In this document: positions 485 to 33,951 of the stretch, piece after piece
Layout of the letters: the number at the start of each line of letters is the position of its first letter
Position numbering within the stretch: position 1 is the first letter of the stretch
The notes under the pieces: model-generated
Seen by the model: only the letters and a program-made list of their open reading frames with translations
What the model was told of the DNA's origin: nothing
Databases searched by the model: none
Translations under genes and position numbers: made by a program
NCBI GenBank assembly: GCA_026004595.1
Contig: BPJL01000009.1
Location: 1 to 38,621 of the forward strand
DNA length: 38,621 nt
Source of the DNA: Patescibacteria group bacterium
GTDB lineage: Bacteria; Patescibacteriota; WWE3; UBA101185; UBA10185
Direction of reading: 5' to 3'

Positions 485-733
485 ATGACTTATAAACCGA
501 AAATCACAAGGAAAGTAATGATTTTTGACCTTGAAAAACCAATCTATGGCAGTGCTTATGCTATTTGGGATAAATGGCTAAAGATTGCAAAAGAAAAAAA
601 GCTAAAATTGGTGATAAACACTCAGTTTGGTACTGCCACCTTTGAGAGTGCTAATGAATATCTAAAAAACGCCAAGAAGATTGAAAGGTATTACAAAAAC
701 CCAAACGAGCCAATGGTTTTTTTGGCAACTTGA
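485..733 (+). CDS. hypothetical protein
   Basis: 82-aa ATG-initiated ORF on the coding strand. No motif recognised. Confidence 0.45.
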   Translation: MTYKPKITRKVMIFDLEKPIYGSAYAIWDKWLKIAKEKKLKLVINTQFGTATFESANEYLKNAKKIERYYKNPNEPMVFLAT

Positions 734-897
734 TTTTTTGCCTTTTATAAAGGAAAGGAAAAAAAGAAAGAAGTTGGAAAGAAAGACTTGAAGATGCTAG
801 TATGCCACTTGAGACAAAGTTGAAATTGAGGGATAAAATAATAAGAGAAAACCCAGATTTGGCAAAAAAGCTAGCACTTTTGTAAATTGTTGTTTTT

Positions 898-1144
898 GGG
901 GTGGGAAGGCAAAGGTAGTGAGAGACGAGCAAGCTGTTCTCTCTGCAACACACTCGCCTGACCCTGAAAAGGGGTGGCGAAGGAAATGCGAACCTTTACC
1001 CTGCTTGCTCCCACCTCAAAAACAACAATTCTTTCTCTGCGAGGCGGTTTGGATTGGGTCACGCCTTTCTGAACCGTTTTTGAGGCGGTCTTGGCTTTGG
1101 GTGAGGGCAGACACCTTGCGAGCTAGCCACGAACTGCCTCGTGG
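898..1144 (+). ncRNA. GC-rich structured RNA / cis-regulatory leader candidate (class unknown)
   Basis: GC-rich island in an AT-rich genome. Closing helix 898-906/1009-1017 plus 911-916/992-997. Hairpins at 920-943 and 955-979 (GAAAA loop). Terminator-like stem 1045-1076 followed by U5. Hairpin 1127-1144 abuts the SD of the next gene. The peptides predicted from it look like nonsense. Confidence 0.45.
1045..1081 (+). terminator. intrinsic terminator / attenuator-like hairpin inside the GC-rich leader
   Basis: CGGUUUGGA (1045-1053) pairs with UCUGAACCG (1068-1076): 9 bp including 2 G-U pairs, 14-nt loop, then T5 (1077-1081). The loop CGCCU (1062-1066) can instead pair with AGGCG at 1042-1046 or 1083-1087. 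Confidence 0.4.
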
Positions 1145-1151
1145 GGGAAGA

Positions 1152-1460
1152 ATGGGAAAATTCCAAAGAAACAAAGGAGCAAGTAACGAAAGGGAGGCCT
1201 GTAGAATGTGGCGTGAGATTGGCTACCCAGAAGCCCGAAGAAAACTATCCCAATACCAAGAAAGGTGCGGAGTGGATTTGGAGAACACGGGAAACTTCAA
1301 AGTGCAGGTGAAAAGCGGAAAAAGGATTGATGTTTGGAAAGCCTTGCAGGAAGCCGAAAAAGAAAGCAAAGCAGGTGATATGCCTTTGGTGATGGCTAAA
1401 AAAGACAGATTTGGTTGGATTGTTGTTTTGAATTGGATTGATTTTGTAAAATTTTTTTAG
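1152..1460 (+). CDS. PD-(D/E)XK nuclease, Hjc-like Holliday junction resolvase candidate
   Basis: MGKFQRNKGASNEREACRMWREIGY...GVDLENTGNFKVQVKSGKR. The KG..ERE / D / QxK spacing resembles archaeal-type Hjc resolvases. ATG at 1152 follows the purine-rich GGGGGAAG. The upstream in-frame extension from 918 was rejected. Confidence 0.55.
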   Translation: MGKFQRNKGASNEREACRMWREIGYPEARRKLSQYQERCGVDLENTGNFKVQVKSGKRIDVWKALQEAEKESKAGDMPLVMAKKDRFGWIVVLNWIDFVKFF

Positions 1461-1526
1461 GAAAATTGTTGATTGTGTGTAGACAGTCCTAAAAGCAACA
1501 AAAATGAAAAAGGGGAGGTGATAAAA

Positions 1527-1998: not shown

Positions 1999-2385
1999 AT
2001 GGGAAAAAATCTGACTGCCAAACTTCCAAACACCCCGAAATTCAAGGAATGGGTTAGACTCTATTTTGACCGAAACAACAAAGAAACTTTTTTAAATGCG
2101 ACACAAGCCGCAATGAGAGTATATGACGCCACTTATGAGTCGGCTCAAACTATAGGCTGGGAGAACTTGCGAAAACTTGAGAGGGCAAGTGCAAAAATTC
2201 TTGAGAGTATGGGAATGACATTCCCTGAACTTCTGAAACTGGGACTAAAAAAAGTAAGCGAGGGAACATATTCAGATTGGGACAAATTTATGGAGCGGTT
2301 AGGATATTTTGACAGGCAACAGGAAGGAACAACTGTAAACGTTGGAGTTTTTAATTTGGTAAAGGATAAATATGGAGAATTTTAA
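1999..2385 (+). CDS. terS: terminase small subunit candidate
   Basis: 128 aa. The FLNATQAAMRVYDATYESAQTIGWENLRK segment resembles the HTH region of small terminases. It lies upstream of the large terminase. Confidence 0.55.
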   Translation: MGKNLTAKLPNTPKFKEWVRLYFDRNNKETFLNATQAAMRVYDATYESAQTIGWENLRKLERASAKILESMGMTFPELLKLGLKKVSEGTYSDWDKFMERLGYFDRQQEGTTVNVGVFNLVKDKYGEF

Positions 2386-3615
2386 AACATACTGGCCGAT
2401 TGAAAAACTAAAAGAATGGGATAAAAATCCCAGAACAATCTCAAAAGAGAATTTTGATAGACTAAAAGCTCAAATTAAGGAGGTTAGGGGAGTATAAGCC
2501 TCTTATTATAACCGAAGACGGCACTGTTTTAGGTGGGAATATGCGATTGAAAGCGTATAGGGAGTTAGGATTTAAAAAGTGTTGGGTATCAATAGTGAAA
2601 GCCGAGACAGAAGAGGAAAAAATAAAATATGCTTTATCTGATAACGACCAATTAGGAGAATATCAAAAAGATGATTTAGCTAATTTAATAGGTAGTATCC
2701 CCGATTTAGATTTGTCAAACTACACAATAAATTTAGGAACTTCAACAGTTATTCAAGATTTGTTAGATGAGTTTAAGGAAGTTGTTGAGGATGAAGTGCC
2801 GGAGGCAGAGGAAGGCGAACCAAAGAGTAAATTAGGAGAGGTTTATCAGTTAGGAAGACATAGACTAATGTGTGGAGACGCAACAAAAAAAGAGGATGTA
2901 GAAAAGTTGATGGGTGGAAAAAAAAGCAGATATGGTGCTTACTGATCCTCCTTATGGAGTAAGTTATGGAGACAAAAATGAATTCTTAAATGCTATTGAT
3001 CGTGGTAATAGAATACAAAAAAATTTACCCAATGATACTAAAAGTGTAAAAGAAATGAAAGATTTATGGACTCGTGCTTTTGTAAATCTTAATTTAGTTA
3101 CTAAAGAGGGAGGGTGTTATTATGGGTGTTCACCTCAAGGTGGGGAATTAATGATGATGATGATGATGAGCTGGTTGGAAGCAGGTTGGGAATTGAAACA
3201 ACAAATTATATGGGTTAAAAATAATATTGTTTTAGGCAGGAGCGATTATCATTATAAGCACGAACCTATTTTATATGGCTGGAAAACCGGGAAAGCCCAT
3301 CGGTTTTATGGAGGAAAAGGCGAAAATACTGTATGGGAAATAGATAAACCTCAAGTTAGTGATTTACATCCCACTATGAAACCCATAGCTCTTTGTGCAA
3401 GAGCAATAAAAAATAGCAGTAAGGAAGGGGATATAATTGTTGACACTTTCGGTGGTTCAGGCTCGACCCTCATCGCCTGTGAACAAACAAACCGCATTTG
3501 CAATATGATGGAGCTTGATCCTTACTATTGCGATGTTATTCGCAAAAGATGGTGGAAGTTTGTTAATAACGGTTCAGAGGAAGGGTGGGAAGAAAATACT
3601 CCTAAAATCCTATGA
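2372..3615 (+). CDS. ParB-like N-terminal domain fused to DNA N6-adenine/N4-cytosine methyltransferase (two frame breaks)
   Basis: ParB-like KPLIITEDGTVLGGNMRLKAY. Catalytic ADMVLTDPPYG is restored by dropping one A from the A8 run 2918-2925. SAM motif DTFGGSGSTLIA. First break lies near the G4 run 2487-2490. ATG at 2372. Confidence 0.85.
3151..3168 (+). repeat. (ATG)6 microsatellite encoding Met6 inside the methyltransferase
   Basis: atgatgatgatgatgatg, in frame with ORF 2914-3615 (GGELMMMMMMSWLEAGW). Confidence 0.9.
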
Positions 3616-4433
3616 AAAACGCTCAAAAGTATCTTAACTTTATAAAAGACAACTTTCTCATTGTTACCAAAGACGGAGAAATTAAGAGATTTGATGAAAC
3701 CGAAAACCACTGGAGGATTCAATCAAAGTTTATTTTAGAAGATGCTACAGGAAGGGATACTATCTTGAAAGCGAGGCAGATGGGACTTTCTAGTGTTATC
3801 CTTGCTTTATTTGCAGTTGATTTTATTGCTAAACCTAACTCTTACTCGATGGTGGTAGCAGATAAGTCTGATAATGCTGAGGATTTGTTAGCCCGAGTCA
3901 AATTCTACCTTAAAAGCTTTGAAGAAAAAAATAAAGTTAAATTGCTTTTAAAATACAACTCAAAGTATGAACTTTACAATGAGGAAATCAACTCAACCTA
4001 CAAAATAGGAACCGCAGAAAATAGAGAGGTGGGTAGATCTAAATCAATTTTTAACTTGCACCTTAGCGAATTTGCCTTCTACCCCGACCCAGAAGCTGTC
4101 TTACGATCTGCTCTTCAGGCGGTTGTTCCTAGAGGAAAGATTTTTATTGAAACTACCGCCAACGGTTTCAATTTCTTTAAAACCTTTTGGGAAGAATGCA
4201 AACAGGGGTTAAGAGACTTTAATCCGATTTTCTATGGTGCAAGCCAGTTTTACTCTAAAGAGTTTTTAGAAAGAAAGAAAAAAGAGTTGAAAGGGTATTA
4301 TTTGCAAGAGTATCCGGACTCTGATATTGAGAGCTTTATTGCCTCAGGTGAACTTTATTTTGCCAAAGAAAGCCTGAAGTGGTATTTGGACAATGTTAGA
4401 GAACCGATTAAAGAGGGGGTGATTTATATATGA
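3612..4433 (+). CDS. terL: large terminase, ATPase domain only (split gene, part 1)
   Basis: Walker A-like ILKARQMGLSS, Walker B-like IFNLHLSEFAF, and ETTANG. It stops at the expected interdomain linker (EPIKEGVIYI*). Confidence 0.8.
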   Translation: MKNAQKYLNFIKDNFLIVTKDGEIKRFDETENHWRIQSKFILEDATGRDTILKARQMGLSSVILALFAVDFIAKPNSYSMVVADKSDNAEDLLARVKFYLKSFEEKNKVKLLLKYNSKYELYNEEINSTYKIGTAENREVGRSKSIFNLHLSEFAFYPDPEAVLRSALQAVVPRGKIFIETTANGFNFFKTFWEECKQGLRDFNPIFYGASQFYSKEFLERKKKELKGYYLQEYPDSDIESFIASGELYFAKESLKWYLDNVREPIKEGVIYI

Positions 4434-4771
4434 GAACAAGGAAGGACACGATAGAGCTGGTTGAGATTTTAGCAGAATTGGAACACGAGCAATGGAAGGC
4501 ATGGGCAGACCATTTTCTTGATAAGGTTTACCGCCAAAATCCACCTGATTATGAGAGTATTAAAAGATGGGAGAGGCAGATTGAAACTCCCTATAAAAAA
4601 TTGACGGAGGAGGAAAAGGACAAAGATAGAGAATGGGCGTGGAAAATACTTAAAAAATTATTGTTGGTGTCTGATAGAAATGGAAACGTTTGGGTAAACA
4701 CAGACAAGCCAGTAAATGTTAGTCTTTTGAAAAAAATTATTAAATGTGTAGAAAGCCTTTTGAATTATTGA
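4430..4771 (+). CDS. hypothetical protein embedded between the terminase halves; RyR-domain-like pattern
   Basis: ATGA overlap with the upstream stop, and its stop lies 1 nt before the next ATG. ILAELEHEQWKAWA...TPYKKLTEEEKDKDREWAWKIL resembles the RyR-repeat pattern (AExxHExW ... PYxxLxEEEKxxDR). This match is from memory. Confidence 0.45.
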   Translation: MRTRKDTIELVEILAELEHEQWKAWADHFLDKVYRQNPPDYESIKRWERQIETPYKKLTEEEKDKDREWAWKILKKLLLVSDRNGNVWVNTDKPVNVSLLKKIIKCVESLLNY

Positions 4772-4772
4772 T

Positions 4773-5426
4773 ATGTTTAAACAATACAGAAAAATAGAAA
4801 AAGGGGAGTTTATCGTTGTTGGAGTCGATACCGCAGCAGGCGGGAATGATTTTACTGCGGCTCAATTCCTCTCCAAGACAAAAGTAGATGTTCCCCTTGT
4901 TTATCATTCAAGAATAATAACCACCGAGTTCACAAATCAGCTCGTGCCTGTTTTGGAAAGAATTTTTGACGAGACGGGGGTAAAACCTGTTGTTGCTTAC
5001 GAGAGAAACAATGGCGGAGCTTTTGAGATGGATAGGTTGGCGGCTATGAACAGGCTTAATAAATATGAGATTTTCAAGATGCCCTCGTTTGGAAGAGAAA
5101 ATCCTCCAGATGCAATACAATACGGTTGGACTACCTCTACCGCTACAAGACCCAAGATGTTACAAGACTTGAAAAATGCGGTTGATAATAGGGTATTAAC
5201 AATTTATGATAGGGAAACTATTAACGAGATGTTTTCTTTTATTATTAGCCAAACCTCTTCTTCTTGGAAAGCCCAAGCCGAGAAAAACGCAAAAGACGAC
5301 TTGGTTATGAGTCTTGGAATTGCATATCAGCTTTATCAGCTTTGTGAAGCACCGAAGGAGAGTGTGGTTAATGTAGATGAGATTGTAGAAAGGAATAAAT
5401 TCCTTGCCCAAAAATGGCAGATGTAA
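4773..5426 (+). CDS. terL: large terminase, RNase H-like nuclease domain only (split gene, part 2)
   Basis: FIVVGVDTAAGGNDFTAAQF (first catalytic Asp), AYERNNGG, and KDDLVMSLGIAYQL. Same reading frame (0) as 3612-4433. Confidence 0.8.
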   Translation: MFKQYRKIEKGEFIVVGVDTAAGGNDFTAAQFLSKTKVDVPLVYHSRIITTEFTNQLVPVLERIFDETGVKPVVAYERNNGGAFEMDRLAAMNRLNKYEIFKMPSFGRENPPDAIQYGWTTSTATRPKMLQDLKNAVDNRVLTIYDRETINEMFSFIISQTSSSWKAQAEKNAKDDLVMSLGIAYQLYQLCEAPKESVVNVDEIVERNKFLAQKWQM

Positions 5427-9166: not shown

Positions 9167-10097
9167 ATGGCTTGGGGTAAAACAACTTATCAATCACCAA
9201 ATGAGGCTAGAGAATCTGTCTTAAGCATTATGAGAGACATCTCTCCTAATGAAGACAATTACTTTGTCTCTAACCTTGCAGTTGGTGCCCCTGCGATGAA
9301 CACTCTTCACCAGTGGAATATCTTCCACGAATCAAGAGTTTCATCTGTTACGGCCTGTAGTTGAGGGTGCTGATCCTAGCTATCCCGATCTGCAAGCTGA
9401 ACAAAGGGCAACCAACTACACCGTATTGGTGGATGCTCCTGTTAGACTTTCAAGCACTAAGGCTTCTATCGCTTCTGTTACTGGCGAAAAGCCGTTAGCG
9501 GTTGAAAAAGCTCGTGCCTTGAGAAGGCTAAAGAACAAAATGGAGTATCTTCTCATCAATGGAACAGCAGCAGCTGGTGATACTGGTACTGCTAGAGGTA
9601 TGGCGGGTATTGATGCGTTTATTACATCTAATGTAACCGCTAGAGCCTCTGGGACATCCTTTACAGAACAAGAGTTGAACGACATCATTCAGCAATCTTG
9701 GGACGCTGTAGGAAATTCCTATGTGGCTGATTTGATTGTTGCTCCTGTTGTTATTAAGAGGAGAATAGCTAGCTTTGGAACTAATTTGACCAGAACCATT
9801 CCCGCAGCTGATAAGAGGCTGACTAATGAGGTTAGGGTCTACGATTCCGAAGTTGGCCAGACAGTCAAAGTCATTGCTCACAAGGATGTTAGATCAGCTG
9901 CAGGAACATTGACTGTTCTTGCTATCCGTGAGGACTTGAGCCAGATGGCATTCTTAACAGGCGGAAATGAACCGCACTGGGAAGAATTCTCAAAGACTGG
10001 ATACTCCGTTAAGGGAGCTTATGTAACCGAATTTACCTACGTGGACCTTAACGAAAAGGCTAACGTAAAGAGGACAGGTTACTCAACAGGTCTGTAA
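9167..10097 (+). CDS. major capsid protein (one frame break)
   Basis: RESVLSIMRDISPNEDNYF..NTLHQW then VVEGADPSY..LAVEKARALRRLKNKMEYLLINGT. This matches the pattern I associate with the DUF5309/SU10-like capsid family. Strong SD, terminator downstream. The break (frame 2 to 0) lies within 9300-9364, most likely near 9350-9360. Confidence 0.7.
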
Positions 10098-10120
10098 TTT
10101 AGACTTGTTGTTCTTTTAGG

Positions 10121-10157
10121 CTGGGGGGAAGTGGTAAATCCCCCCAGTTGCTTTTTT
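10121..10157 (+). terminator. rho-independent terminator after the capsid gene
   Basis: CTGGGGGGA (10121-10129) pairs perfectly with TCCCCCCAG (10139-10147). 9-nt loop, then TTGCTTTTTT. Confidence 0.8.
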
Positions 10158-10158
10158 G

Positions 10159-10167
10159 TGATATAAT
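10159..10167 (+). promoter_or_regulatory. extended -10 promoter (TGATATAAT) heading the glycosylation island
   Basis: TG-a-TATAAT at 10159-10167, immediately after the terminator. ATG 10176 lies 8 nt downstream and has no SD. Confidence 0.4.
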
Positions 10168-12888: not shown

Positions 12889-13834
12889 GTTAAAGATATA
12901 AAGGTAACAGTTTATACACCGACTATTAGGGAAGGTTGGTGGAACATAATGTCTGATAATCTTTCAAAACAAACTTATAAAAACTTTGAATGGATTATCG
13001 TTGACGATTATCGGGAAGATAGAACACAAATAGCTCAAAAATACGCCCAAAAATATAACCTTGATATTAAATACATTCGTGGGGATAAGGCTTTGGGAAA
13101 ACACAATCGCAGGCTGGGGTCTTGTAAGAGCAAAATAATATTGCTTGGAAAAATGCTAATGGCGAATTGATTGTGTTTTTGCAAGACTTTGTTTTAATTC
13201 CTGAAAATGGTATTGAAAATCTTGTGGATTTATATAGACACAATAAAGACGCTTTGATAGCACCTGTTGATGTCTATTATTTTGCTGCAAAAGCAGATAA
13301 AACAAACAAAGAAGACTGGTGGAATGGAAAGACTGATATTTTATTGGAGGAAGATTGGAGAAATGCAAGGGTTAGGTTTGGTGGAATTAGAGAAAGTGAT
13401 AATCCTTTTGACTGGGAGGCTAATTATGGAGCAATACCGAAGCATATTTTAGATGAACTAAATGGATTTTGGGAGTTTATTGACGACGGGGCTGGGGTAT
13501 GATAATACTGAAATTTGTTTTAGAGCAATAGAGCTTGGATACAGGCTTTTGATAGATGATAGCAATATAGCAAAATGCATAAACATTTGGGGAGAGGTTG
13601 GAGGGACTTTCGCAAAATATTTTAAGCAGAGAAAGAATGCTAAATCCACCACGGTATAAGTATTTGGTAGAGGAAACAAAGAAAGGAACACTTCCTGTTG
13701 TCAGAGATGAACAATTAGATAAAAAGATTAAACTTGATTTTGAGGTTCCAAAAGATATTAAAGATGAAGATTGTGCTGAATGGATTAGTAAACATACGGA
13801 TGAGATAGTAAGGAGGTGGAGAGAATGCCGTTGA
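12889..13834 (+). CDS. GT-A (family 2-like) glycosyltransferase segment (multiple frame breaks)
   Basis: KVTVYTPTIREGWWNIMSDNLSKQTYKNFEWIIVDD (classic GT2 N-terminus), then ..GELIVFLQDFVLIPENGIENL.. It lies in the same ORF (12781-13170) as the GT4 tail, so the two are probably fused. Confidence 0.55.
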
Positions 13835-14278: not shown

Positions 14279-15387
14279 ATGAAAGTTATAGAATACAAGC
14301 TATAATCCTAACAAAACACACCTTGCCAAACTTGAATTTACTCTTGAACAAGCTCGTCTTTTGTATAATGAAGCGTTAAAACAAAGGATAACTAGCTGGA
14401 AAGAAAATCAAAAAAGATTAAATTATTATGACCAAACCAAGTTTTTTAAGAGTAAATATCCTATTTCGGCAATGCTTACTCAATGTGTATTAAAAAGACT
14501 AGATACTACCTATCAAAGATTTTTCAAAAGAATTAATAACTTTCCAAGATTTAAGGTCAAAAAATAGGTTTCGTAGTATTGATATACGCCAGTGGGGATT
14601 AAATGCCTCATTGAAAGATGGAAAACTAAGATATGACAAAATGTTAATTAGAACATCTAACCATAGAGAGCTAGAGGGCACACCAAAAACGGGGAGGATT
14701 GTAAAAAGAGCTGATGGTTGGTATCTGCAAGTAGTTTGTGATGTTGGTGCTAAAAAAACCTAAAGCAAAAATAAAAACTGCTATTGGACTAGATATGGGA
14801 TTAAAATATCTAGTAGCCGACAGTGAGGGTAACATTATACAAGCACCTAAAATGTTTAGAAAAACAGAAGCTAAATTAGCTAAACAACAAAAAGTGTTAA
14901 GCAGACGAGTTAAAGGTAGCAATAGTTGGATGAAAGCAAAGGAAGCTGTTGCAAAAAACACATCTAAAAATATCAAGACAGCGAAAAGATTTTCTCCATA
15001 AGATTTCCTATAAGTATGCTCAATATGATTTAATTGCGGTTGAAAAATTAAACATTAAAGGAATGTTAAAAAAATCATCATTTAGCGAAAAGTATTTCTG
15101 ACGCAAGTTGGAATATGCTTCTACGGCTAATACGCTACAAAGCTGCGAATGCTGGTAGCTATTTTGTAGAAGTAAATCCAAAATACACAAGTCAGAAATG
15201 TAGCGGTTGTGGTGCGATTATTCAAAAAATCGCTCAGTGTCAGGACACATATTTGTCTGAATGTTCTCTGATAATAGATAGAGACCACAACGCTTCGTTA
15301 AATATTTTAAGGGCAGGAATTGCCCTTGGTGGAGAGATGGGATTGCCCATCTCGTTGAAACCAGAAGCCACTAAGTCTTTAGCTTAG
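14279..15387 (+). CDS. tnpB: TnpB (OrfB) RNA-guided nuclease family protein (at least 5 frame breaks)
   Basis: MKVIEYKL..NPNKTHLAKLEFTLEQARLLYNEAL.., FPRFKVKK. RuvC motifs IGLDMG, IAVEKLNIKGM and DRDHNASLNIL. Zn finger CSGCG. RKDFLHKISYKYA is restored by a shift at the A6 run 14953-14958. Confidence 0.8.
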
Positions 15388-33921: not shown

Positions 33922-33951
33922 TTGACAGGAGTATAGTCAATAGGGTATAAT
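33922..33951 (+). promoter_or_regulatory. sigma70-type promoter (early, P2)
   Basis: TTGACA at 33922-33927, 18-nt spacer ending AATAGGG, TATAAT at 33946-33951. ATG 33959 lies 7 nt downstream. Confidence 0.6.

What the first reader, a model, noticed from the sequence alone, without database searches (positions are those of the whole stretch)
898..1144. GC-rich structured RNA with a built-in terminator/antiterminator-like switch upstream of the resolvase-like gene
A stretch of about 250 nt is conspicuously GC-rich in an AT-rich genome. It lies in a gap with no convincing coding capacity. The in-frame extension of ORF 918-1460 and the antisense ORF 871-1062 both give nonsense-like peptides.

Hand folding gives these elements:
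- Closing helix GGGGUGGGA (898-906)/UCCCACCUC (1009-1017), extended by AAAGGU (911-916)/ACCUUU (992-997).
- Inner hairpins GAGAGA (920-925)/UCUCUC (938-943) and CGCC-UG-ACCCU-GAAAA-GGGGU-GGCG (955-979). Together these form a junction-type domain of about 120 nt.
- A 9-bp stem (1045-1053/1068-1076) followed by U5.
- Duplicated GAGGCGGU boxes (1041-1048 and 1082-1089). Either can pair with CGCCU (1062-1066) in the terminator loop, giving mutually exclusive folds.
- A perfect 6-bp hairpin CCACGA/UCGUGG (1127-1144) that abuts the purine-rich SD of the gene starting at 1152.

This layout of a sensor-like domain plus an expression platform resembles a riboswitch or attenuator. I could not match it to any class I know (see rejected items).
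Basis: seen in the sequence. Interest (0 to 1): 0.6.

Follow-up and report, generated by a model that had tools for sequence, protein, structure and literature searches.

The report
Folded RNA leader masking nuclease gene
A roughly 270-base non-coding stretch in front of a small DNA-cutting enzyme gene of an uncultivated phage most likely folds, as RNA, into two tight domains, the second of which buries the gene's ribosome-binding site; it is a real but fairly ordinary kind of expression brake, not a demonstrated riboswitch.

Summary
Every helix is at the stated coordinates. The stretch is the most GC-rich part of the 38.6-kb phage contig and folds far better than shuffled sequence.

It has two domains:
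It folds equally well on both strands.
Its closing helix pairs 1028-1040 with 1141-1153 and so buries the Shine-Dalgarno sequence and the AUG of the nuclease gene. It folds only on the gene strand (z -6.0 against -1.2), which argues for RNA.

The stretch matches no Rfam family, tRNA or tmRNA. I found no diverged homologue, so covariation is untested. Three independent assemblies carry near-identical pieces with different break points, which makes it a recombining module.

The riboswitch reading is unsupported. The closing helix is too stable to switch, and the proposed alternative pairings cost 3-11 kcal/mol while leaving the ribosome site masked.

My best reading (about 0.5) is a translation-masking leader with a weak terminator, like those in front of T4 nuclease genes.

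Earlier notes from this scan describe similar leader types on other DNA. None describes a look-alike sequence.

The parts
485..885 (+). Upstream gene. In the window it is broken into three frames (485-733, 681-791, 802-885). It is probably one gene of about 131 codons, and its stop codon TAA 883-885 abuts the element.
   Evidence: The Logan contig from run X1 lacks one base at 717 and one at 785. Intact 131-aa homologues are present in L015 and L019.
859..888 (+). Promoter-like site, TTGGCA-18-TAAATT. If used, transcripts would start near 895, inside the left arm of the inverted repeat.
   Evidence: Consensus scan, 9 of 12 matches. This is a weak pattern match only. In L015 and L019 a perfect TTGACA-17-TATAAT follows the homologous gene.
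885..1030 (+). Domain 1. A 22-bp closing helix (885-906/1009-1030, one G.U pair) is extended by 907-911/1002-1006. It encloses a branched core with hairpins 920-943 and 955-979.
   Evidence: Fold energy -68.5 kcal/mol, z -7.55 on +; -64.7 kcal/mol, z -7.0 on -. It is the best inverted repeat in the window. Run X3 holds 885-1053 with 2 differences between flanks that do not match the window.
1028..1153 (+). Domain 2, a three-way junction made of H1 (1028-1040/1141-1153), H2 (1041-1053/1068-1080) and H3 (1082-1140).
   Evidence: Fold energy -62.5 kcal/mol, z -6.0 on +; -31.1 kcal/mol, z -1.2 on -. 12 of 51 pairs are G.U. Run X2 shows 0 differences over 981-1151.
1041..1081 (+). Terminator-like hairpin H2 followed by U5 (1077-1081).
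   Evidence: -18.8 kcal/mol, compared with -20.0 for the canonical terminator after the capsid gene at 10118-10160. The loop is 14 nt, so the scan tool did not list it.
1143..1154 (+). Shine-Dalgarno-like GGGGGAAG (1143-1150) and start codon ATG (1152-1154), both inside helix H1.
   Evidence: Pairing probability is above 0.99 for 1141-1150. Forcing 1141-1155 open costs 13.6-15.6 kcal/mol.
1152..1460 (+). Small nuclease gene (102 aa), PD-(D/E)XK-like.
   Evidence: phrog_244, E 1.2e-11, profile positions 4-108. Relatives give weak, sub-threshold Pfam hits to PDDEXK_15 and Hjc. Only 5 relatives in 5.8 billion proteins.
986..1072 (+). Candidate 28-codon upstream ORF. Its stop codon lies in the 3' strand of H2. 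This part is speculative.
   Evidence: ORF list. The stretch 967-988 is 77% identical to the ribosome-site region of the gene at 1527 (family D5). No test of translation was possible.
1464..1477 (+). Imperfect direct copy of 885-898 (AATTGTTG..), just after the nuclease stop codon. The two copies bracket the element plus the gene.
   Evidence: The search pattern was defined from these copies, so the count is circular. This is suggestive only.

Best explanation
The stretch is a cis-acting, non-coding part of the + strand message, lying between the upstream gene (stop at 885) and the nuclease gene (start at 1152).

Domain 2:
- It folds into a three-way junction. Its closing helix pairs a pyrimidine-rich strand (1028-1040) with the Shine-Dalgarno sequence and the first two bases of the AUG (1141-1153).
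- In the default state the nuclease is therefore poorly translated.
- Hairpin H2 followed by U5 adds a weak transcription stop in front of the gene.

Domain 1:
- It is a very stable branched stem-loop with a 22-27 bp stem.
- It most likely serves as a processing or stability signal (an RNase III-type target) or as a barrier between cistrons.

Inference on how the mask is lifted: translation becomes possible when the 5' strand of H1 is missing or occupied. That could happen by a transcript start or a cleavage downstream of 1040, or by ribosomes on the short upstream ORF. Ligand sensing is not required.

Shown versus inferred:
- Shown: the folds, their statistical excess, their strand specificity, the non-coding status, and near-identity of the overlapping pieces in three independent assemblies.
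- Inferred: that the stretch is transcribed as a leader, that masking lowers translation, the role of domain 1, and the way the mask is relieved.

Origin: the leader and the first two thirds of the gene form a GC-rich module (about 892-1330) that recombines between related phages.
For: 1. Structure in excess of chance. z is -6.9 for 870-1160, -7.55 for domain 1 and -6.0 for domain 2, with 0 of 200 shuffles as stable in each case.
2. Strand specificity of domain 2. It gives -62.5 kcal/mol (z -6.0) on + against -31.1 kcal/mol (z -1.2) on -, and 12 of 51 pairs are G.U. Three control windows elsewhere in the phage fold equally on both strands.
3. Masking. Positions 1141-1150 are paired with probability above 0.99, and opening 1141-1155 costs 13.6-15.6 kcal/mol.
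4. Non-coding status. The family profile begins at the ATG at 1152. No protein resembles the translations of the element. Homologues at 57-64% identity start at the equivalent residue with unrelated upstream DNA.
5. Conservation. Run X2 has 0 differences in 981-1151 but 4 in 1152-1330. Run X3 has 2 differences in 885-1053. The N-terminal extension of protein P0003 reproduces the in-frame reading of about 1113-1151 with one extra codon, so that part of the leader exists in an 81%-identical relative.
6. Precedent. In T4-type phages the ribosome sites of the nuclease genes I-TevI, I-TevII, I-TevIII, segB, mobE and gene 49 are sequestered in stable RNA structures (PMC2988022 section 12 and PMC3014915 section 29, passages read).
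7. The binned host genome encodes RNase III.
Against: - There is no covariation evidence at all. Every copy found is at least 98% identical.
- There is no transcript evidence. No RNA run was listed.
- Other parts of this phage, including coding sequence, also reach z -4.5 to -6.1, so strong folding alone is not proof of function here.
- The leader is not conserved with the gene. The 64% homologue (L034) has a different, poorly folding upstream stretch (z -0.65) that carries a 56-codon ORF. The 57% homologues (L035, L036) have no leader.
- Domain 1 folds equally well on both strands, so it could act as DNA.
- No sigma-70-like promoter lies inside domain 2, so the T4-style relief by an internal start has no support here.
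- The high GC content may simply reflect a foreign origin. The GC-rich block runs on into the gene and ends near 1330, where the X2 contig also diverges.
Confidence: 0.5

Rival explanations
1. It is a ligand-sensing riboswitch of a new class. Domain 1 would be the aptamer and domain 2 the expression platform.
For: The layout is a branched domain followed by a terminator-like hairpin and a masked ribosome site. The 3' strand of the closing helix (1011-1023) is 92% complementary to 1076-1088 (pair I7), so an alternative pairing exists on paper.
Against: No Rfam match. The closing helix of 22-27 bp is far too stable to depend on a ligand. The alternative pairings are 3-11 kcal/mol worse and do not unmask the ribosome site. 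A nuclease gene is an unusual riboswitch target. The element is single-copy and confined to near-identical phages.
Confidence: 0.07
2. It is a stand-alone small RNA of about 185 nt. It would be made from the promoter-like site at 859-888 and ended at the U5 tract at 1081, and it would act in trans or as a decoy. The nuclease would be expressed only by read-through.
For: A promoter-like site with a start near 895. Domain 1 plus H2 plus U5 fold as an independent unit of -74.4 kcal/mol. Run X3 shares exactly 885-1053 at about 99% identity while its flanks differ.
Against: The promoter match is weak (9 of 12). The U tract is short. The X3 identity ends inside the terminator hairpin, not after it. 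Domain 2 downstream of 1081 is equally well folded and is built around the gene's start.
Confidence: 0.12
3. Domain 1 acts as DNA. It could be a recombination or inversion site, a packaging or replication signal, or the relic of a small mobile element with 22-bp terminal inverted repeats.
For: Domain 1 folds equally on both strands (z -7.55 and -7.0). It is the best inverted repeat in the window. A third copy of the arm motif lies at 1464-1477, so two direct copies bracket the element plus the gene. The element sits next to a nuclease gene and about 850 nt upstream of the small terminase gene. Break points in X2 and X3 show it recombines.
Against: The arms are 102 nt apart, which is poor for cruciform extrusion (general knowledge). 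No target-site duplication is present. The X3 identity runs 23 nt past the right arm. There is no second copy in the window, in 25 related loci or in the binned genome. No integrase or invertase was found in the window. All three assemblies have the same orientation. Domain 2 cannot be explained this way.
Confidence: 0.12
4. It has no function of its own. It is GC-rich DNA imported with the 5' part of the nuclease gene from a GC-richer relative, and it folds well by accident of composition and past duplication.
For: The GC-rich block runs from about 892 to about 1330 across the gene start, and it ends where the X2 contig diverges. Both the element and the gene are absent from 5 of 5 closely related phage records and from 20 of 20 terminase-related loci. 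The 5' halves of H2 and H3 look like a diverged duplication starting with GAGGCGGT (seen in the sequence).
Against: The z-scores are relative to dinucleotide-preserving shuffles, so composition is controlled. The precise three-way junction closing over the Shine-Dalgarno sequence and AUG, and the strong strand bias, are not expected from accident. Tandem Repeats Finder finds no repeat.
Confidence: 0.12
5. It is coding: an N-terminal extension of the nuclease (GTG 918, 180 aa) or another small protein.
For: The nuclease frame is open back to 918. P0003 was called with an 18-residue extension that resembles the window's in-frame reading.
Against: The family profile starts at the ATG at 1152. P0002, P0004 and the L035 homologue start at the equivalent methionine. 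No protein matches the 78-aa extension. The extension has no family hit.
Confidence: 0.03

Closest known systems
RNA structures that sequester the ribosome-binding sites of phage T4-type nuclease genes (I-TevI, I-TevII, I-TevIII, segB, mobE, gene 49) and of the late genes e and soc
   Same: A very stable helix buries the Shine-Dalgarno sequence and/or the AUG of a nuclease gene carried on a long polycistronic phage message, which keeps translation low (PMC2988022 section 12; PMC3014915 section 29; passages read). Here 1141-1153 is paired with probability above 0.99.
   Different: The T4 cases are single hairpins of a few tens of nucleotides with a late promoter inside the 5' strand. Here the mask is the closing helix of a 126-nt three-way junction, preceded by a 146-nt branched domain, and no internal promoter was found. 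There is no sequence relationship. The host is a CPR bacterium according to earlier scan notes, which I did not verify.
Intrinsic-terminator attenuators and riboswitch expression platforms
   Same: A hairpin followed by a U tract lies in a 5' leader ahead of the gene (1041-1081), and there is a masked ribosome site.
   Different: No Rfam family matches. No antiterminator competes at comparable energy. The closing helix of the upstream domain is too stable to switch.
PeSL (promoter-early stem-loop) regulatory cassettes of T4-type phages
   Same: A small regulatory unit made of a promoter plus a stem-loop lies at the junction of exchanged gene modules. Recombination at such units shuffles genes (PMC2839356, abstract read). 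Here the element is about 99% identical between phages whose flanks differ, and short direct repeats bracket the element plus the gene.
   Different: PeSLs are short and present in many copies per genome. This element is 270 nt and single-copy in the window, in related loci and in the binned genome.
RNase III processing hairpins between cistrons of phage T7 and lambda (recalled, not checked in a paper)
   Same: A double-stranded stem of about two helical turns lies between cistrons on a polycistronic phage message. The binned host has an RNase III gene.
   Different: Cleavage is untested. Domain 1 carries a branched 100-nt core, not a simple internal loop.

Membership tests
Any catalogued RNA family (Rfam 15: riboswitches, ribozymes, introns, sRNAs) | Scores at or above the family's covariance-model threshold | tested here: not met
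   There were 0 matches at gathering scores over the whole window. At E<=10 over 700-1500 there were only 5 chance-level hits, the best being a nematode snoRNA at E 0.17.
Riboswitch (as a mechanism) | Conserved aptamer supported by covariation across diverged examples | tested here: inconclusive
   No diverged example was found. Only copies at least 98% identical were seen in runs X1-X3. There were no hits in 60 relatives, 134 genomes of the same class, 20 related phage loci or 5 phage records.
Riboswitch (as a mechanism) | Two mutually exclusive folds of similar energy that link the sensor to the expression platform | tested here: not met
   The forced alternatives are 3.0, 11.1 and 11.5 kcal/mol worse. 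The two box:CGCCU alternatives keep the masking helix. Domain 1 is closed by 22-27 bp.
Riboswitch (as a mechanism) | Specific ligand binding | not testable with these tools
   This needs in-line probing or ITC.
Intrinsic terminator / attenuator | Stable G+C-containing stem directly followed by a U tract | tested here: inconclusive
   H2 gives -18.8 kcal/mol, is rich in G.U pairs, has a 14-nt loop, and is followed by only 5 U. The scan tool did not list it and listed a different 7-pair hairpin at 1073-1089.
Ribosome-site-sequestering leaders of phage nuclease genes (T4 type) | Shine-Dalgarno sequence and/or start codon inside a stable helix | tested here: met
   Helix 1028-1040/1141-1153. Pairing probability above 0.99. 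13.6-15.6 kcal/mol to open. This is a prediction only.
Ribosome-site-sequestering leaders of phage nuclease genes (T4 type) | A promoter inside or just after the 5' strand of the helix, giving unmasked late transcripts | tested here: inconclusive
   No sigma-70-like site lies between 1028 and 1150. The promoter types of this phage are unknown.
PeSL-type mobile regulatory cassette | Many near-identical copies in one genome | tested here: not met
   The element is single-copy by BLAST and by covariance model.
MITE / small inverted-repeat transposon | Terminal inverted repeats, target-site duplication and multiple copies | tested here: not met
   Inverted repeats are present. There is no flanking duplication and no other copies. 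The shared block in X3 overruns the right repeat by 23 nt.
tRNA / tmRNA | Detected by ARAGORN | tested here: not met
   0 genes in the window.
RNase III processing site | About 20 bp or more of near-perfect double-stranded RNA; cleavage by the enzyme | tested here: inconclusive
   A 22-bp helix with one G.U pair, extended by 5 pairs, is predicted. The binned genome has an RNase III gene. Cleavage is not testable here.

The most novel reading that the evidence does not exclude
The element could be a self-contained, exchangeable RNA control module. The stable branched domain plus the pyrimidine-rich 'anti-Shine-Dalgarno' strand (885-1053, the exact block shared at about 99% identity with a phage whose flanks have diverged) would move by recombination between phages of ultra-small (CPR) bacteria. 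It would silence whatever gene it lands in front of. Release would depend on a trans factor, a small ligand, or translation of the short upstream ORF. That would make it a new class of portable riboregulator.
Probability: 0.12. Interest if true: 0.6.

Novelty: new member of a known kind. Interest (0 to 1): 0.33.

Why it matters
Little is known about how phages of the ultra-small CPR bacteria control gene expression. If this reading is right, such a phage restrains a potentially harmful nuclease in the way T4 does, by burying the ribosome-binding site in RNA structure, but with a much larger two-domain leader.

The fact that a non-coding block is kept near-identical while its flanks differ makes it a candidate for a transferable regulatory part.

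The practical value is modest. The finding gives a defined helix (1028-1040/1141-1153) that can be tested directly with compensatory mutations in a reporter.

Tried and rejected
DNA searches for homologues of 870-1160 or 885-1160:
- GenBank phages, blastn: no match.
- Own genome: only the element itself.
- 60 relatives: only matches of 28 nt or less; the best non-self E was 0.0125.
- 134 genomes of the same class: only the element itself.
- 20 IMG/VR loci related through the terminase: nothing below E 0.97.
- 5 whole related phage records: one 19-nt match at E 0.087.

Exact-pattern scans:
- A 25-mer from hairpin 955-979 gave 0 hits in IMG/VR and 0 in the GTDB representative genomes.
- A 16-mer from 1118-1133 gave 3 hits in IMG/VR, all in unrelated GC-rich contigs.

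Covariance model of domain 1: it matched only itself across 26 sources (226,949 bases) and the own genome.

Routes through the nuclease protein:
- The single protein found nothing usable in IMG/VR or GTDB.
- The 5-sequence alignment found 3 metagenome loci, 1 weak IMG/VR locus and none in GTDB.
- Of the 3 metagenome loci, L034 has a different upstream stretch and L035 has no leader. L036 lacks the upstream region.

Sequencing runs: no RNA holder was listed, so nothing can be said about expression.

Other attempts:
- The AlphaFold model of the nuclease had mean pLDDT 57.6. That is too low for a fold search, so none was run.
- Tandem Repeats Finder found nothing in 800-1500.
- The extended promoter motif of L015 and L019 is not repeated in the window.
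- The sliding z-score scan stopped at 13250 for lack of time.
- One forced-pairing test (box 1 against 1133-1140) used wrong coordinates and is disregarded.

Considered and dropped:
- Group I or II intron: no Rfam hit, and no split host gene around the element.
- attP core: no integrase in the window, and no copy in the binned genome.
- Retron: no reverse transcriptase.
- Type III toxin-antitoxin: no tandem repeats.
- TnpB guide RNA: the TnpB fragments lie 14 kb away.
Full report
CONTEXT

The window is one whole contig (C9, 38,621 bases) of a 1.04-Mb, 18-contig genome bin. Earlier notes of this scan call the bin a CPR/WWE3 bacterium; I did not verify that label.

The contig is a phage, with all recognisable genes on the + strand:
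- small terminase, 1999-2385
- a ParB-methyltransferase in three frames, 2372-3615
- large terminase in two halves, 3612-4433 and 4773-5426
- an SU10-type portal and capsid protein
- an endolysin and several nucleases
- TnpB fragments
- no integrase or reverse transcriptase

The gene just downstream of the finding, 1152-1460, matches phrog_244 ('RusA-like Holliday junction resolvase', E 1.2e-11). The profile alignment begins at the ATG at 1152. Its relatives give weak, sub-threshold Pfam hits to PDDEXK_15 and Hjc, so I call it a small PD-(D/E)XK-type nuclease.

The gene upstream is broken into three frames in the window. A Logan contig from the probable source run lacks one base at 717 and one at 785, and intact 131-residue homologues exist in two related phages. 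It is therefore one gene, 485-885, and the window carries homopolymer indel errors. None of those errors falls in 885-1600.

THE OBSERVATION

GC is 0.52-0.53 across 900-1200 against 0.376 for the contig, and the highest 200-nt GC value in the window starts at 948.

The + strand of 870-1160 folds to -129.5 kcal/mol with z -6.9. Two things were missed.

First, the closing helix of the upstream domain is a 22-nt inverted repeat, 885-906/1009-1030, with one G.U pair. It is the best local inverted repeat in the whole contig. It starts one base inside the stop codon of the upstream gene.

Second, the downstream half is a closed three-way junction with almost no unpaired linker:
- H1: 1028-1040 pairs with 1141-1153
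- H2: 1041-1053 pairs with 1068-1080
- H3: 1082-1140

H1 contains the Shine-Dalgarno-like GGGGGAAG (1143-1150) and the A and U of the start codon. The pairing probability of 1141-1150 exceeds 0.99, and forcing 1141-1155 open costs 13.6-15.6 kcal/mol.

RNA OR DNA, AND WHICH STRAND

| Stretch | + strand | - strand |
|---|---|---|
| Domain 1 (885-1030) | -68.5 kcal/mol, z -7.55 | -64.7 kcal/mol, z -7.0 |
| Domain 2 (1028-1155) | -62.5 kcal/mol, z -6.0 | -31.1 kcal/mol, z -1.2 |
| Three control windows (capsid gene, capsid terminator) | z -5.07, -4.50, -5.11 | z -6.11, -4.18, -5.70 |

Domain 1 folds about equally on both strands, so folding alone cannot say whether it acts as RNA or DNA. Domain 2 is different: 12 of its 51 pairs are G.U, and it folds only on the + strand. 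The control windows are symmetric between strands, so the asymmetry of domain 2 is not a general property of this genome. This is the strongest single argument that at least domain 2 is selected as RNA in the sense of the genes.

The same controls also show that z-scores near -5 occur in coding sequence of this phage. Strong folding by itself is therefore not proof of function here. My sliding scan covered only the first 13,250 bases.

NOT CODING, NOT A CATALOGUED RNA

- The reading frame of the nuclease is open back to 918. However, the family profile starts at 1152, and three of the four relatives start at the equivalent residue.
- Translations of 918-1151 and of the antisense ORF 871-1062 have no candidate among 5.8 billion proteins.
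- Rfam gives nothing at gathering scores for the whole window and only chance-level hits at E<=10.
- ARAGORN finds no tRNA or tmRNA.

COMPARATIVE EVIDENCE

I could not find a diverged homologue, so covariation is untested. The searches are listed under Tried and rejected. In short, there was no match in GenBank phages, in 60 relatives, in 134 genomes of the class, in 20 IMG/VR loci and 5 whole phage records related through the terminase (47-77% identity), or with a covariance model of domain 1.

The nuclease itself is rare, with 5 relatives in 5.8 billion proteins. The leader does not travel with the gene family:
- The 64% homologue (L034) has a different GC-rich upstream stretch that folds no better than chance (z -0.65) and carries a 56-codon ORF.
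- The 57% homologue in L035 abuts the preceding gene. In L036 the contig starts inside the gene.
- Only the 81% relative, P0003, shows a trace. Its called N-terminal extension reproduces the window's in-frame reading of roughly 1113-1151 with one extra codon. That means this part of the leader is conserved at the DNA level there.

Contigs of four public runs from four studies were laid on 700-1600:

| Run | What it holds | Differences from the window |
|---|---|---|
| X1 (probable source) | The whole stretch | Identical except the two single-base deletions at 717 and 785 |
| X2 | A contig starting at 981 and matching to 1330, then diverging | 0 in 981-1151; 4 in 1152-1330 |
| X3 | A 286-nt contig matching only 885-1053, unlike sequence on both sides | 2, one of them A1013C in the 3' strand of the closing helix; the other was not listed |

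On X2: the four changes alter two codons and leave a third synonymous, by my reading of the codons.

On X3: its partner position 902 could not be inspected. The 30 visible bases of the X3 left flank can be read as a diverged C-terminus of the upstream gene, ending in a stop codon at the same junction. This is my inference from few letters and is weak.

The element is thus part of a module that recombines among related phages. Its left edge lies at the gene boundary, and its other break points lie at 1053 and 1330.

The GC-rich block as a whole runs from about 892 to about 1330 and ends where X2 diverges. Part of the 'GC-rich island' signal is therefore foreign ancestry of leader plus gene, not RNA structure alone. 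An imperfect direct copy of 885-898 lies at 1464-1477, just after the nuclease stop codon. Compared with L015 and L019, homology breaks after AAATTGT (885-891), at the point where those phages have a perfect sigma-70 promoter.

MECHANISM

The best-supported reading is a cis-acting leader that keeps the nuclease gene quiet.
- H1 masks the ribosome site.
- H2 plus U5 (-18.8 kcal/mol, compared with -20.0 for the clear terminator after the capsid gene) may stop a share of transcripts.

This is how T4-type phages hold down their nuclease genes. There, the ribosome sites of I-TevI, I-TevII, I-TevIII, segB, mobE and gene 49 are sequestered in stable RNA structures on long early transcripts, and late transcripts that start inside the structure are translated (PMC2988022 section 12; PMC3014915 section 29; passages read).

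The matching relief mechanism is not visible here. No sigma-70-like promoter lies inside domain 2, and the promoter types of this phage are unknown. Other possible routes to unmasking are:
- cleavage of the 22-27 bp stem of domain 1 by RNase III, whose gene the binned genome carries;
- ribosomes translating a 28-codon ORF (986-1072). Its upstream 22 nt are 77% identical to the ribosome-site region of the gene at 1527, and its stop codon lies in the 3' strand of H2.

These routes are inferences only.

The riboswitch idea fares poorly:
- The putative sensor is locked by a helix far too stable to respond to a ligand.
- Forcing the 1127-1144 hairpin costs +11.5 kcal/mol.

RIVALS

- A stand-alone small RNA running from a weak promoter-like site (859-888) to U5 at 1081. 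This fits the X3 block only loosely.
- A DNA-level role for domain 1: a recombination, inversion or packaging signal, or a transposon relic. This fits its strand symmetry and its three arm-motif copies. It lacks copies, a target duplication and a recombinase, and it cannot explain domain 2.
- No function at all.
- Coding. This is essentially excluded.

VERDICT

The stretch is a real, non-coding, strongly and strand-specifically folding element that matches no catalogued family. It most likely works as a translation-masking leader for a nuclease gene inside a recombining GC-rich module. It is a new example of a known kind of phage control, not a demonstrated new riboswitch. Without diverged homologues or transcript data, confidence in the mechanism is moderate (about 0.5).

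Earlier notes of this scan describe comparable GC-rich leaders that mask ribosome sites on other DNA. No look-alike sequence was on record.

Noticed in passing
window 717, 785; also 2372-3615, about 9350, and 14738-15387: The window carries single-base indels relative to an independent assembly at 717 and 785. Several other genes are likewise split across frames: the ParB-methyltransferase in three pieces, the capsid gene 9168-10097 with a shift near 9350, and the TnpB fragments. The assembly probably has homopolymer errors, so frameshifted genes here should not be read as pseudogenes.
   Followed up: partly
window 3612-5426; loci L013, L017, L020, L021, L025, L032: The large terminase is encoded as N and C halves with a 113-codon ORF (4430-4771) between them. 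In relatives the halves either abut in different frames with a 4-nt overlap or are separated by inserts of about 0.1-1.2 kb. This looks like a hot spot for insertions in a naturally split terminase.
   Followed up: partly
window 14738-15387: Fragments of a TnpB-type protein (Pfam OrfB_IS605 and the Cas12f1-like TNB domain) lie inside the phage's glycosylation region. Any guide-RNA region at its 3' end was not examined.
   Followed up: no
window 9201-9400: The 5' part of the capsid gene folds unusually well on both strands (z -4.2 to -6.1 with 200 shuffles). I have no explanation for this.
   Followed up: partly
window 10118-10160 and 33922-33951: A textbook intrinsic terminator follows the capsid gene (11-bp G/C stem, U6, -20.0 kcal/mol). 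The only perfect TTGACA-N18-TATAAT promoter of the contig lies at 33922-33951 on the + strand.
   Followed up: no
L034 95-265: Upstream of the 64%-identical nuclease homologue lies a GC-rich 56-codon ORF with a Cys/His cluster (C-x-C-x-H-H-x-x-C). It has no Pfam hit and no unusual RNA fold. It occupies the place that the leader occupies in the window.
   Followed up: partly
L015 and L019, immediately after the homologue of window gene 485-885: In both related phages, the stop codon of the homologous gene lies inside the -35 box of a perfect sigma-70 promoter (TTGACA, 17 nt, TATAAT or TATTAT). In the window, homology to this promoter breaks off after AAATTGT, where the GC-rich element begins.
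   Followed up: partly
window 986-1072: A 28-codon ORF inside the element starts in a predicted single-stranded junction of domain 1 and stops inside the terminator-like hairpin. Its upstream 22 nt resemble the ribosome-site region of the gene at 1527. It is a possible leader peptide but is untested.
   Followed up: no
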